64,000 bases of DNA. It comes from Escherichia coli O127:H6 str. E2348/69 (GTDB taxonomy: Bacteria; Pseudomonadota; Gammaproteobacteria; Enterobacterales; Enterobacteriaceae). Each line of letters starts with the position of its first letter. Position 1 is the first letter of the stretch. The stretch lies in the NCBI RefSeq assembly GCF_000026545.1, contig NC_011601.1; one strand, written 5' to 3'. A program made the position numbers. Below, piece by piece: positions 8,501 through 11,500 of the stretch.

Positions 8501-11500
8501 ATGATGTTACGTACGTTAAAATCATTTCGTCATATTGCCTCCTCTGAATCTGGCGTCAAAATATCTAAAATGCCTCTGATGGATATCTTTATTCAACAAT
8601 TTATAGAGAGCGTGCGTAAGATTGTGCAGAGAGGGTTAAAACGTGACTATTTACGTCAGGAAGATAATCTTCCATGGATGAAAGGAAGATTACGGATCTC
8701 TGCACAATTAAGCAAAAACTGTATTAGGCGGGATCGTTTTCAGGTGGAGTATGACGAGTACAGCGTCAATCGTCTGGAAAACCGGATACTCAAAACTGCA
8801 ATCAATAAGATTAGTCGCCAGACCAGTAATCCACAATTATTACAGCAGATAACACAGCTGCAGTTTCACTTTGAAAATATCACGTCAGTTCATGATGCTT
8901 ATATAGCTTTCGAGCAGTTACACTTTGATAGACAAATGCATCACTATGAGCAAGCATTAGCGTGGGCGAAGATGATTTTATTGGGCGATTCTCCACACTG
9001 TATGTATGGGGATGTTAATGCTTTTTCACTGCTTTTCCCGATGGAGGCTGTTTTTGAATCTTTTGTGACGACATGGATGCGTTATCGTTATTATGATAAA
9101 TGGCGAGTGGACGCACAGGTAAGTTCAAAAAATCTGATTAGTTATAACGGTAAAGCTTTATTTAAGCTGCGGCCTGATATTTGTTTACGGCCTCGTAAAA
9201 GTACTACTGGTTCAGTTATTACCTGTGATGTTAAATGGAAGATAGTAAATGGCAGAAAGGACAGTCTTGAACAATCTCAAGCCGATCTCTACCAAATGCT
9301 TGCCTATGGATTGAATTACCAGGAGGGGGAAGGTGATATGATTTTGATATACCCCTATCATAACGGATTTAATCAGCCATCTCCTCATCCTTATGAATTT
9401 AGCCATCAGAAGGAAAATAGGTTACGTTTATGGGTTGTACCTTTCTTTATTGGCGAGAGTTTACAAACATCAGAGTTGCGTTTTCCTGGTGGGGCTGAAT
9501 TTATTTAGTATTTGTAGGCTATCTCTTTATACAATTTATTTGTCTATTTGTATGCACAAAATAGCCTACCTCACCCCCTAAAAACCTCTTTCCGATGCCA
9601 CTCTACAAACACCTCATAAGGGTAATTTTTACGTACCTGCGGCAAAGCAATAGTTTTCCCGTCAAAATCCCAGAATAGTTTCTCAACGATCCCTCCGCCG
9701 TTTACCGCATCTGATACCAGTACCCGCATATTTTCGTCCAGGCCAATCGATCCTTTATCAAAGGCTTTATGGTGAATTGCGCAAAGCGCCAGGCCATTAG
9801 GAATTTCACAAGGACCGCCGTGCTGTTTCCATTTTATATGCGCCGCTTCAAGCGCGACGGTGGTGTCGTCGTGGCGCATATTAAAGCCACATATCGCGCA
9901 CTGGTAGTTATAAGCGCGTAATACATTTTTGCGAAATAACGGGTCGCGCTGTTTACGGATTTGCTGGAGGTCAAAACCCAATTCGTCAGCAATTTCCTCC
10001 TGAATACTCTCGGTAAAATGCGCTTCGAGTATCTGTTGCGCCAGGGTATTGATGAGTTTTTTATTGCCGGTTACCAGGGCGTAGTGCTGTTCATCGAAAC
10101 CGCCTGCAACGCGGTGTTCGGTCAGTTCCTTCACTGGCGGTTGTCGGCTGCTCCCTGCTGTTGAGCAAAGCCCGGCATTGTGTAATTGCCAGAATCCGTC
10201 GCCTTGTAATCGCCAGAACGGCATATCAGGTCGGTACTGTGAACGCTGTGGCCCAAAACGTTCCAGTAAACTGTGCAGAGGTTCGTAGATTTCCGAGCCA
10301 TAATCGAAAAGGCGCGGATGTCCATTCAGGTATCCCGCTAATACGTATAGCAATAACAATGGCTTATGCGGCGCGCGCTGTTCACCCTTGTGCCAGATTT
10401 TTATATTGGCAATTGCCTGCTGTAGCGATTTACTGGAAGCCATTGATATCCCTGGCAGTGAAATAATTGCGATCATGCTCGCAAATTTTCTTCTGTTCAA
10501 GCCTGCAAGTGAAGATATATTACTTTGATCTCATTTGTTTTTTTGCTGCCTGCTCTGAGAACGTATAAGGATATTCCCCATGAATAAACTTCCCGACCAT
10601 CTTCCGCGGCGGTATATCATCGAAGCTATCCATTTATGGGATGCGGGAGAAACTCATCAGTTCCAGCCTGCACGGTTGTATTAGATTGAATATCATGGCC
10701 GACGTTACCCCTCGAAGGCGATTGCTGGCATCGCAGCGACATTGATGACGGGGACGCAATTTACCCCTGCGGATTTCACCGGCGGAATAAAATCTAAATG
10801 CGTCAAACTACTCATAGAGCAGGGATTTCATATTCATCAGGATAAAGCCGCTGCGGCTCCCATAGCCGACGTTCTGTTCCCGGATGAGTTGCCGTCGCAG
10901 GAGACCTACGTTGAAGGTGCGGCGATAAAGGTGACAGTAAACCGCTATGAACGCGATAAAAAGGTCCGAGATAAAGCGGTCGAATATCATGGATGCCAGT
11001 GCAACGTATGCGGCGTTGATCTGGTGAAGATCTATGGTGATATTGCTGAAGGCTTTATCCATATGCATCACCTGGTGCCGCTTTCAGCCATTAAAGAGGA
11101 TTACCAGCTGGATCCAGTTAATGATTTGCTGCCTGTGTGTCCTAATTGCCATGCGATGTTGCACCGACGCAAACCACCGTTTACGCCGGAGGAGTTAAAA
11201 GCGTTGATGGATGCGAATAAATCAAATTAATGAACGCTCACCTTTCGCGCCAAAACTGCAAAATTGCTTCTACAAACCTGTCAGAAATAATCCCCCGACG
11301 GGCTGCCGCGCTGAAATGACTGCTTCGCAGTGCCGTCGTCCAGTTCTCCGGTGACCGGTACGCTGAACCGTAATATCCCGTGCTTAAATCGTCCGGGTCT
11401 TCATCAGGCGCGTTCGTCAGTCCTCTTTCACCTTGTTGCTGGAAGTCGACGAAAATAATATTGGCTAAAACATTATTTTGATAATTGCCATAAATAGCTT

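What the first reader, a model, noticed from the sequence alone, without database searches (positions are those of the whole stretch)
9571..10500. Two-domain HNH nuclease with uncharacterised N-terminal domain (possible modification-dependent restriction enzyme)
The 309-aa protein combines a C-terminal HNH motif (YQCAICGF...HIKW...CAIHHKAFD) with a ~170-residue N-terminal domain (KPLLLLYVLAGYLNGHPRLFDYGSEIYEPLHSLLERFGP...MPFWRLQGDGFWQL) that I cannot assign. This architecture resembles modified-DNA-dependent HNH restriction enzymes, where the N-terminal domain reads a base or backbone modification. It sits convergent to the McrBC-like pair and divergent from a second, inactivated HNH gene.
Basis: inference. 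Interest (0 to 1): 0.55.

Follow-up and report, generated by a model that had tools for sequence, protein, structure and literature searches.

The report
Known phosphorothioate-DNA restriction enzyme (EcoWI-type)
This gene encodes an already characterised kind of bacterial restriction enzyme that recognises sulfur-modified (phosphorothioate) DNA backbones and cuts nearby, so the find is real but ordinary.

Summary
The ORF is real (9571..10500, minus strand). The conserved start is the ATG at 10443, giving 290 aa rather than 309. The window is 100% identical to E. coli E2348/69, where RefSeq already names this gene "phosphorothioated DNA-binding restriction endonuclease" (WP_000168585.1).

The "unassignable" N-terminal domain is the DNA sulfur-binding domain (SBD, Pfam PF26340 DNA-SBD_ScoMcrA):
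- NCBIfam NF045808 matches end to end, 437 bits against a cutoff of 180.
- The family profile hits the ScoMcrA, SprMcrA and Hga SBD crystal structures (E = 1e-23 to 1e-9).
- An AlphaFold model (pLDDT 95) superposes on SBD-PT-DNA structures (TM 0.72-0.78).
- The sulfur-pocket residues (H26, K27, M74, P75) and the HNH/zinc residues are intact and conserved.

The protein is 98% identical to the ortholog in E. coli W, the presumed source of EcoWI. EcoWI is a Mg2+-dependent dimer that cuts GpsAAC/GpsTTC at N7/N6 and restricts dnd+ plasmids.

The domain, however, is not uncharacterised.

The flanking McrBC-like pair is a swappable neighbour. The divergent "second HNH" is a ScoMcrA-head+HNH gene killed here by one nonsense mutation.

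Verdict: already known, low interest.

The parts
9571..10443 (-). Complete CDS (290 aa plus stop) of the SBD-HNH phosphorothioate-dependent restriction endonuclease, RefSeq WP_000168585.1.
   Evidence: RefSeq annotation of the identical E2348/69 sequence. NCBIfam NF045808 scores 437 bits against a cutoff of 180, full length. 283/290 identical to the E. coli W ortholog.
10444..10500 (-). Most likely a 5' leader rather than coding sequence. It contains an AGGGA Shine-Dalgarno-like motif at 10449-10453 and a small palindrome at 10467-10484.
   Evidence: Orthologs in other genera start at the equivalent of M1 of the 290-aa form, and M1 is invariant. The NF045808 alignment starts at residue 25 of the 309-aa form. 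The palindrome is listed but is not above chance expectation.
10018..10443 (-). DNA sulfur-binding domain (SBD), residues about 1-142 of the 290-aa protein; Pfam PF26340 DNA-SBD_ScoMcrA.
   Evidence: phmmer against ScoMcrA SBD 5zmo gives E = 7e-6. The family profile gives 5zmm 1e-23, 7ccd 1e-15 and 8h0l 1e-9 over profile positions 3-142. Foldseek of the AF2 model: the top 10 hits are all SBDs, with TM to target 0.72-0.78 and rmsd 3.1-3.3 A. PF26340 is recorded on all homologs.
10360..10368 (-). Codons H26-K27-P28, equivalent to ScoMcrA H116-R117: the wall and the positive charge of the sulfur-binding cavity.
   Evidence: HMMER alignment to 5zmo. K27 is invariant, and H26 and P28 are >=90% conserved in 89 diverse homologs. 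The role of H116/R117, which is Lys in most homologs, is described in PMC6224610.
10219..10224 (-). Codons M74-P75, equivalent to ScoMcrA Y164-P165: the lid and floor of the sulfur-binding cavity.
   Evidence: Alignment. P75 is invariant. Y164 is variable among homologs and Y164M strengthens binding in ScoMcrA (PMC6224610).
9913..10017 (-). Helical linker, residues about 143-177, between the SBD and the HNH domain.
   Evidence: AF2 secondary structure shows helices 128-142, 145-155 and 168-177. The EcoWI paper describes a variable middle linker region.
9574..9912 (-). C-terminal HNH (beta-beta-alpha-Me) nuclease domain, residues about 178-290. Predicted zinc finger C182xxC185 + C221xxH224; predicted catalytic residues H202, N216 and H225.
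   Evidence: Pfam HNH_2, E = 1.3e-9. TagI 6ghs matches by sequence and fold. C182, H202, N216 and H224 are invariant, and C185, C221 and H225 are >=90% conserved in 89 homologs. The CxxC/CxxH zinc finger is described for the EcoWI family. Assigning each residue to zinc binding or catalysis is inference.

Best explanation
The gene encodes a stand-alone, modification-dependent restriction endonuclease of the SBD-HNH (EcoWI) family.

Shown here: the N-terminal sulfur-binding domain has the fold and the pocket residues (H26, K27, M74, P75) that in ScoMcrA and SprMcrA hold the Rp sulfur of a phosphorothioate (PT) linkage in a small hydrophobic, positively charged cavity. The C-terminal HNH domain has an intact zinc finger and H-N-H triad.

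Inferred from the published biochemistry of EcoWI and from 98% identity to the E. coli W ortholog: the enzyme works as a dimer. It binds DNA carrying GpsAAC/GpsTTC (fully or hemi-modified) and, with Mg2+, cuts both strands a fixed short distance downstream (N7/N6, leaving a 1-nt 3' overhang), more efficiently when two modified sites are present. It thereby destroys incoming plasmids or phages that were PT-modified by a foreign dnd system.

The host's own DNA is spared because it lacks that modification. This last step is inferred and was not checked genome-wide.
For: - Identity and annotation: the window is 100% identical to E2348/69, where the CDS is annotated as 'phosphorothioated DNA-binding restriction endonuclease'.
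- NCBIfam NF045808 PT-DNA_restrict: E = 2.5e-131, 437 bits against a cutoff of 180, covering profile positions 2-284 of 284.
- SBD by sequence: 5zmo E = 7e-6 with the single sequence. With the family profile, 5zmm 1e-23, 7cc9/7ccd/7ccj about 1e-15 and 8h0l 1e-9.
- SBD by fold: AF2 model pLDDT 95.4, pTM 0.91. The Foldseek top hits are all SBD-PT-DNA complexes, TM 0.72-0.78.
- Pocket and HNH/zinc residues are invariant or nearly invariant across 89 homologs of 35-81% identity and across enterobacterial orthologs.
- 283/290 identical to the E. coli W ortholog at the same chromosomal position. None of the 7 differences falls in the pocket, in the loop aligned to the ScoMcrA S187-R191 base-reading loop (G97-Q101), or in the HNH motif.
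- Published EcoWI properties: PT-dependent, GpsAAC/GpsTTC N7/N6, Mg2+, dimer, restricts dnd+ plasmids in vivo when expressed alone (PMC7461809).
- No dnd or ssp genes are annotated in the 64-kb window.
Against: - No experiment exists on this exact allele.
- The source strain and accession of EcoWI are not stated in the paper or its supplement. Equating EcoWI with the strain W ortholog rests on REBASE naming convention (my own knowledge) and on a matching predicted mass (33.3 kDa computed against 33.4 kDa reported).
- The window allele has G91 where E is >=90% conserved among enterobacterial orthologs, plus six other substitutions of unknown effect.
- The locus decays in some lineages: only a ~200-bp remnant survives in BL21 (verified), and K-12 records give the same 28% partial match. 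An intact ORF therefore does not guarantee expression or activity.
- Absence of a GAAC/GTTC PT-modification system elsewhere in the E2348/69 genome was not checked.
Confidence: 0.9

Rival explanations
1. The gene is an intact-looking but functionally decayed or silent allele: a restriction gene on its way to becoming a pseudogene, with no role in this strain.
For: Only a ~200-bp frameshifted remnant survives at this position in BL21, and K-12 records show the same 28% partial match. Only 1706 of 5426 complete E. coli genomes have a match covering >=80% of the gene. The divergent neighbour gene carries a nonsense mutation in this very strain. G91 replaces a nearly invariant Glu. No sigma-70-like promoter was found by the simple scan.
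Against: The reading frame is full length. All sulfur-pocket, zinc-finger and catalytic residues are intact. The protein is 98% identical to the strain W ortholog. The promoter scan is crude, and partial megablast matches can also reflect divergent alleles rather than decay.
Confidence: 0.07
2. The enzyme reads a base modification (5mC, 5hmC or 6mA), as SRA-HNH, EVE-HNH or EcoKMcrA-type enzymes do, rather than the phosphorothioate backbone.
For: The HNH domain resembles those of TagI (SRA-HNH), VcaM4I (EVE-HNH) and EcoKMcrA. ScoMcrA, the founding SBD protein, also cuts methylated DNA, but through a separate SRA domain.
Against: The matches to TagI, VcaM4I and EcoKMcrA cover only the HNH part. 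The N-terminal 142 residues match only SBDs by sequence and fold. The protein is too short to hold an additional SRA domain, and Pfam and NCBIfam find none. The EcoWI paper reports only low nicking of Dcm+ pBR322 in Mg2+ buffer and cutting of it only at high enzyme concentration.
Confidence: 0.02
3. The protein is one subunit of a multi-gene system. It needs the adjacent McrBC-like GTPase/nuclease pair, or the divergent ScoMcrA-head+HNH protein, to work.
For: It sits immediately next to both. The head-HNH + SBD-HNH divergent pair recurs in Klebsiella in a different chromosomal context. Together the two genes carry three of ScoMcrA's four domains (head, SBD and HNH, but not SRA).
Against: The McrB neighbours of E2348/69 and W are only 35% identical and lie in opposite orientation relative to the PT-REase, while the PT-REase is 98% identical. 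Salmonella, Citrobacter, Enterobacter and Buttiauxella orthologs have neither partner next to them. The head-HNH gene is a nonsense mutant here and a 105-bp remnant in strain W. EcoWI cloned alone cuts PT-DNA in vitro and restricts dnd+ plasmids in vivo.
Confidence: 0.03

Closest known systems
EcoWI (E. coli SBD-HNH phosphorothioate-dependent restriction endonuclease; Lutz et al. 2020, PMC7461809; NCBIfam NF045808)
   Same: Same species and same two-domain SBD-linker-HNH architecture. Same length class: 290 aa, with a computed mass of 33.1-33.3 kDa against 33.4 kDa reported. Same family signature: KPzzLL...PF...L...W, then CxxC...CxxH. 98% identical to the strain W ortholog at the same locus.
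   Different: Seven substitutions relative to the W allele: G91E, T108N, H110Y, R111H, G156R, H208Q, K255R (window residue first). None has been tested. The exact sequence of the published EcoWI could not be retrieved here.
ScoMcrA (Streptomyces coelicolor type IV enzyme; PDB 5zmm, 5zmn, 5zmo)
   Same: Homologous SBD with the same sulfur cavity (H116/R117/Y164/P165 correspond to H26/K27/M74/P75), and an HNH nuclease with a zinc finger.
   Different: ScoMcrA has four domains (head-SBD-SRA-HNH, 561-residue PDB chain). It also targets methylated DNA, recognises GpsGCC, cuts about 23 bp away at variable distance, and prefers Mn2+. The window protein has no head or SRA domain. About 20% identity within the SBD.
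SprMcrA (Streptomyces pristinaespiralis SBD-HNH; SBD structures 7cc9, 7ccd, 7ccj)
   Same: Same SBD-HNH two-domain architecture and PT dependence.
   Different: SprMcrA has an H-N-R catalytic variant, is active with Mn2+ but inactive with Mg2+, cleaves at a variable distance, and is distantly related (about 20% identity in the SBD). The window protein keeps the canonical H-N-H.
TagI, VcaM4I and EcoKMcrA (SRA-HNH, EVE-HNH and N-terminal-domain-HNH modification-dependent enzymes)
   Same: Same design logic: an N-terminal modification reader fused to a C-terminal HNH_2-type nuclease that dimerises. The HNH domains are homologous.
   Different: Their reader domains flip out and recognise modified cytosines.

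Membership tests
SBD-HNH phosphorothioate-dependent restriction endonucleases (EcoWI family, NCBIfam NF045808) | Full-length match to the curated family model above its cut-off. | tested here: met
   437 bits against a cutoff of 180, E = 2.5e-131, profile positions 2-284 of 284.
SBD-HNH phosphorothioate-dependent restriction endonucleases (EcoWI family, NCBIfam NF045808) | N-terminal DNA sulfur-binding domain fold (PF26340; PDB 5zmo, 7cc9, 8h0l). | tested here: met
   Sequence: E = 7e-6 for the single sequence and 1e-23 for the profile. Fold: Foldseek TM to target 0.72-0.78, rmsd about 3.2 A over about 157 columns, with all top 10 hits being SBDs. PF26340 is recorded on all close homologs.
SBD-HNH phosphorothioate-dependent restriction endonucleases (EcoWI family, NCBIfam NF045808) | Sulfur-cavity residues: His, Lys/Arg, a variable hydrophobic lid residue and Pro (ScoMcrA H116, R117, Y164, P165), plus core residues F166, W167, L169 and W175. 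| tested here: met
   The corresponding residues are H26, K27, M74, P75, F76, W77, L79 and W85. K27 and P75 are invariant; H26, F76, L79 and W85 are >=90% conserved in 89 homologs. Met at the lid position is tolerated or favourable (PMC6224610).
SBD-HNH phosphorothioate-dependent restriction endonucleases (EcoWI family, NCBIfam NF045808) | C-terminal HNH nuclease with a CxxC...CxxH zinc finger and an H-N-H triad. | tested here: met
   Pfam HNH_2, E = 1.3e-9. C182xxC185, H202, N216 and C221xxH224-H225 are present and conserved.
SBD-HNH phosphorothioate-dependent restriction endonucleases (EcoWI family, NCBIfam NF045808) | PT-dependent DNA cleavage in vitro and restriction of dnd+ DNA in vivo. 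| not testable with these tools
   Shown for EcoWI and four homologs in PMC7461809. Transferred to this allele through 98% identity to the strain W ortholog.
SBD-HNH phosphorothioate-dependent restriction endonucleases (EcoWI family, NCBIfam NF045808) | The host lacks a cognate PT-modification (dnd) system of the same specificity. | not tested
   No dnd or ssp genes are annotated in the 64-kb window. The rest of the E2348/69 genome was not scanned. The literature search found nothing linking the strain to PT modification.
ScoMcrA-type four-domain type IV enzymes (head-SBD-SRA-HNH) | An SRA domain between the SBD and the HNH, and an N-terminal head domain. | tested here: not met
   The 290-aa protein has only the SBD, a helical linker and the HNH. 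The head domain (PF26345) is found instead on the separate divergent neighbour gene.
Base-modification-dependent HNH enzymes (SRA-, EVE- or PUA-HNH: TagI, VcaM4I; EcoKMcrA) | An N-terminal reader domain with an SRA, EVE, PUA or EcoKMcrA-N fold. | tested here: not met
   These structures align only through the HNH part: profile positions 144-290 (6yex) or 159-242 (6ghs), with low TM of 0.26-0.31.
McrBC-type GTP-dependent restriction systems | Function depends on a McrB AAA+ GTPase and a McrC nuclease partner encoded in the same operon. | tested here: not met
   The gene is convergent to the McrBC-like pair here and co-directional in strain W. The McrB proteins are only 35% identical between the two strains. 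Orthologs in other genera lack McrBC neighbours.

The most novel reading that the evidence does not exclude
The divergent pair formed by the ScoMcrA-head+HNH gene (216 aa) and the SBD-HNH gene may be a conserved two-gene cassette. It is intact in E. coli strains 144 and GF43. It is also present in Klebsiella, at 66% and 78% identity respectively, in an unrelated chromosomal context. On this reading the head-HNH protein, whose head domain has no known function even in ScoMcrA, would be a second modification-dependent nuclease with an undiscovered ligand, or a partner that modulates the PT-dependent enzyme. E2348/69 would then have lost that half through a single nonsense mutation.
Probability: 0.1. 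Interest if true: 0.4.

Novelty: already known. Interest (0 to 1): 0.08.

Why it matters
There is little new here. The enzyme class, its sulfur-recognition mechanism (from crystal structures), its biochemistry and even a sequencing application (EcoWI-seq) are published, and the gene is already correctly named in RefSeq.

The practical value is confirmation. The EPEC reference strain E2348/69 carries an apparently intact PT-dependent restriction gene in its nanS-proximal defence island. That could lower the efficiency of introducing DNA prepared from dnd+ hosts, and it is relevant when interpreting horizontal transfer barriers in this lineage.

The side observation of a recurrent head-HNH/SBD-HNH cassette is the only element that might repay further work.

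Tried and rejected
- EcoWI source: I tried to find the source strain or accession of EcoWI in the main text and supplement of PMC7461809 and in PMC9521924 and PMC10602919. It is not stated. I therefore compared with the E. coli W ortholog, on the basis of the naming convention and a matching predicted mass.
- Pfam scan: the installed Pfam library reported only HNH_2 for the protein.
- PADLOC has no dedicated model. It gives only generic HNH and mREase_IV hits.
- Promoter and terminator scan of 9400-10750: no sigma-70-like promoter was found. The only terminator-like hairpin (10467-10484) is at chance level, so it is not interpreted.
- McrBC as an obligate partner: considered and rejected.
- A base-modification reader: considered and rejected.
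- Literature search for E2348/69 with phosphorothioate found nothing relevant.
- Two scripting calls failed on an off-by-one coordinate and on a locus file not yet available. Both were corrected.
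Full report
**Observation**

Upstream lies a McrB/McrC-family pair on the + strand, ending at 9508, which is convergent with the target. Downstream, on the + strand and divergent from it, lies a second HNH-containing frame.

The window is 100% identical to the chromosome of enteropathogenic E. coli E2348/69 (O127:H6). In that RefSeq record the CDS runs from the ATG at window 10443 to 9571. It is 290 aa (WP_000168585.1) and its product name is already 'phosphorothioated DNA-binding restriction endonuclease'.

Four things favour the 290-aa form:
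- Orthologs from Citrobacter, Enterobacter, Klebsiella, Salmonella, Buttiauxella and others are all about 290 aa.
- These orthologs start at the equivalent Met, and M1 is invariant.
- The NCBIfam model aligns from residue 25 of the 309-aa form.
- An AGGGA motif lies 5 nt upstream of this ATG (sequence).

**What the two domains are**

The C-terminal part is an HNH_2 nuclease (Pfam, E = 1.3e-9).

- A single-sequence phmmer search of PDB sequences hits the ScoMcrA SBD (5zmo, E = 7e-6) over 139 residues.
- A profile built from 89 homologs of 35-81% identity hits ScoMcrA (5zmm, 1e-23), the SprMcrA SBD (7cc9, 7ccd, 7ccj, about 1e-15) and the Hga SBD (8h0l, 1e-9) over profile positions 3-142. It hits TagI and VcaM4I only through the HNH part.
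- NCBIfam NF045808 'phosphorothioated DNA-binding restriction endonuclease' matches end to end: 437 bits against a curated cut-off of 180.
- All close homologs carry the precomputed Pfam pair PF26340 (DNA-SBD_ScoMcrA) and PF13391 (HNH_2).
- An AlphaFold2 model built on the 89-sequence alignment is very confident (mean pLDDT 95.4, pTM 0.91). Foldseek against the PDB returns SBD-PT-DNA complexes as the ten best hits (TM normalised to target 0.72-0.78, rmsd 3.1-3.3 A over about 157 columns), followed by the HNH domains of TagI, VcaM4I and EcoKMcrA.

The answer is SBD, not SRA, EVE, YTH or PUA.

**Functional residues**

In ScoMcrA the Rp sulfur sits in a cavity formed by H116, R117 (Lys in most homologs), Y164 (variable; Y164M binds better), P165 and A168. 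F166, W167, L169 and W175 form the hydrophobic core (PMC6224610).

The HMMER alignment equates these with H26, K27, M74, P75, F76, W77, L79 and W85 of the 290-aa protein. A168 aligns with R78; the paper notes that A168 is less conserved than the other cavity residues. In the 89-sequence alignment K27 and P75 are invariant, and H26, P28, F76, L79 and W85 are at least 90% conserved.

The EcoWI paper gives the family signature as KPzzLL...PF...L...W plus an HNH domain with a CxxC and CxxH zinc finger. The window protein has K27-P28-LLLL, P75-F76...L79...W85, C182xxC185 and C221xxH224, with H202 and N216 invariant and H225 at least 90% conserved. Which residues bind zinc and which are catalytic is my inference from the motif.

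**Relation to the characterised enzyme**

EcoWI is an E. coli SBD-HNH enzyme with these published properties (PMC7461809):
- predicted mass 33.4 kDa, dimeric in solution;
- Mg2+-dependent;
- cleaves GpsAAC/GpsTTC at N7/N6, leaving 1-nt 3' overhangs;
- cuts fully and hemi-modified sites, and works better with two sites;
- abolishes transformation by dnd+ plasmids when expressed alone in E. coli.

It is also the basis of EcoWI-seq (PMC9521924).

Neither the paper nor its supplement states the accession or source strain. By REBASE naming convention (my own knowledge) EcoWI should come from E. coli W. Strain W carries a 290-aa ortholog (WP_000168572.1) at the same chromosomal position, next to nanS-nanM-nanC-fimB. 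It is 283/290 identical to the window protein, without gaps, and computes to 33.3 kDa.

The seven differences are G91E, T108N, H110Y, R111H, G156R, H208Q and K255R. None lies in the sulfur pocket, in the stretch aligned to the ScoMcrA S187-R191 base-reading loop (G97-Q101), or in the HNH motif. The only unusual one is G91, where Glu is nearly invariant among enterobacterial orthologs.

**Distribution and context**

The family is large:
- 4423 hits at E <= 1e-5 in the 90%-clustered database, many already carrying the PT-DNA endonuclease name.
- 499 clusters at 50% identity with E <= 1e-30, nearly all 285-315 aa and aligned end to end.

Among 5426 complete E. coli genomes, 4871 have some match and 1706 have a match covering at least 80% of the gene. 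BL21 retains only a ~200-bp frameshifted remnant between nanS and yjhR, and K-12 records give the same 28% partial match. The locus is therefore ancestral at this position and is intact in some lineages and decayed in others.

The neighbours vary:
- In E2348/69, strain 144 and GF43 the order is hsdRSM, DUF4942, McrB/McrC family, then the PT-REase (convergent), then the head-HNH gene (divergent), then nanS.
- In strain W the McrBC-family pair is co-directional with the PT-REase. Its McrB is only 35% identical to that of E2348/69.
- In Salmonella, Citrobacter, Enterobacter and Buttiauxella the ortholog sits alone among unrelated island or defence genes: CbtA/CbeA, a type II R-M system, a type I R-M system, a TIR protein, and T6SS genes.

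Together with the fact that EcoWI alone restricts dnd+ DNA, this indicates a single-gene system. No dnd or ssp genes are annotated anywhere in the 64-kb window. The rest of the genome was not checked.

**Mechanism**

Shown by sequence and fold: an SBD with an intact sulfur cavity is joined by a helical linker to an intact zinc-finger HNH nuclease.

Inferred from the literature on EcoWI and on the ScoMcrA and SprMcrA structures: a dimer docks on Rp-phosphorothioate linkages in a GpsAAC/GpsTTC context and cuts both strands a fixed few base pairs downstream in the presence of Mg2+. This restricts DNA coming from dnd+ donors, while the unmodified host chromosome is largely ignored. I put about 0.9 on this.

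The rivals are: a silent or decayed allele (0.07), dependence on neighbouring genes (0.03), and a base-modification reader (0.02).

**Verdict**

The domain, however, is not uncharacterised, and the gene is already correctly annotated and belongs to a biochemically and structurally studied family.

Novelty: already known. Interest: low.

The one mildly interesting by-product concerns the divergent neighbour, window 10580..11230:
- It encodes a ScoMcrA-head+HNH protein (PF26345 + PF01844).
- It is inactivated here by a single G->T nonsense change at 10682.
- Its pairing with the SBD-HNH gene recurs in Klebsiella in a different chromosomal context.
- The function of the head domain is unknown even in ScoMcrA.

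Noticed in passing
window 10580-11230 (+); stop codon at 10682-10684: The 'second HNH' gene encodes a 216-aa protein. Its N-terminus matches the ScoMcrA head domain (5zmm residues 29-93, E = 5e-5; Pfam PF26345 ScoMcrA_N in the Klebsiella ortholog) and its C-terminus is an EcoKMcrA-like HNH. In E2348/69 codon 35 is TAG (G->T at 10682), whereas strains 144 and GF43 have GAG and an intact gene. RefSeq instead calls a 181-aa CDS from an ATT at 10685. In strain W only a 105-bp remnant is left.
   Followed up: yes
L010-L012 (Klebsiella) 5183-6870; L005/L006 (E. coli) 6572-8231: The divergent pair ScoMcrA_N-HNH + SBD-HNH recurs in Klebsiella (66% and 78% identity to the E. coli proteins), between GH43/xylose genes and T6SS Hcp. 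That is a different chromosomal context, which suggests a mobile two-gene cassette. Salmonella, Citrobacter, Enterobacter and Buttiauxella orthologs lack the head-HNH partner.
   Followed up: partly
window 6147-9508 (+) vs L003:24393-27804 (-): The McrB/McrC-family pair next to the PT-REase scores far below the curated EcoKMcrBC cut-offs (117 bits against 637 for McrB; 108 against 338 for McrC). It differs strongly between strains (McrB 35% identical between E2348/69 and W) and is inverted relative to the PT-REase. This is an uncharacterised McrBC-like variant with a long N-terminal region whose specificity is unknown.
   Followed up: partly
window 1-5785: A type I R-M system (hsdR, hsdS, hsdM) and a DUF4942 gene lie in this nanS-proximal island rather than in the classical immigration control region. 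The classical region (yjiN to yjiA, window about 38.6-45.8 kb) holds only an Rpn-family gene, symE, an hsdR remnant and a 3'-5' exonuclease gene in this strain.
   Followed up: no
L002 (E. coli BL21) 6011-6216: BL21 retains only a ~200-bp frameshifted remnant of the PT-REase gene, between the nanS remnant and yjhR. K-12 records give the same 28% partial match. Common laboratory strains therefore appear to lack this restriction activity.
   Followed up: partly
window 11238-12218 (-): The window has an uninterrupted 326-aa nanS (sialate O-acetylesterase) ORF, but RefSeq annotates only a partial pseudogene (window 11652-12218) plus a 30-aa hypothetical gene at 11230-11319. The two are inconsistent, which may be an annotation artefact.
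   Followed up: no
L013:601-3245 (metagenome contig): A 61%-identical SBD-HNH homolog lies next to a DndB-family (PF14072) gene and a small PUA_2 gene on a short contig. This is a possible rare case of a PT-dependent nuclease adjacent to dnd-related genes.
   Followed up: no
window 10467-10484: A perfect 6-bp-arm palindrome, TTGCGATCATGCTCGCAA, lies in the putative 5' leader of the PT-REase gene. It is at chance level in the scan, so it may or may not be a regulatory site.
   Followed up: no
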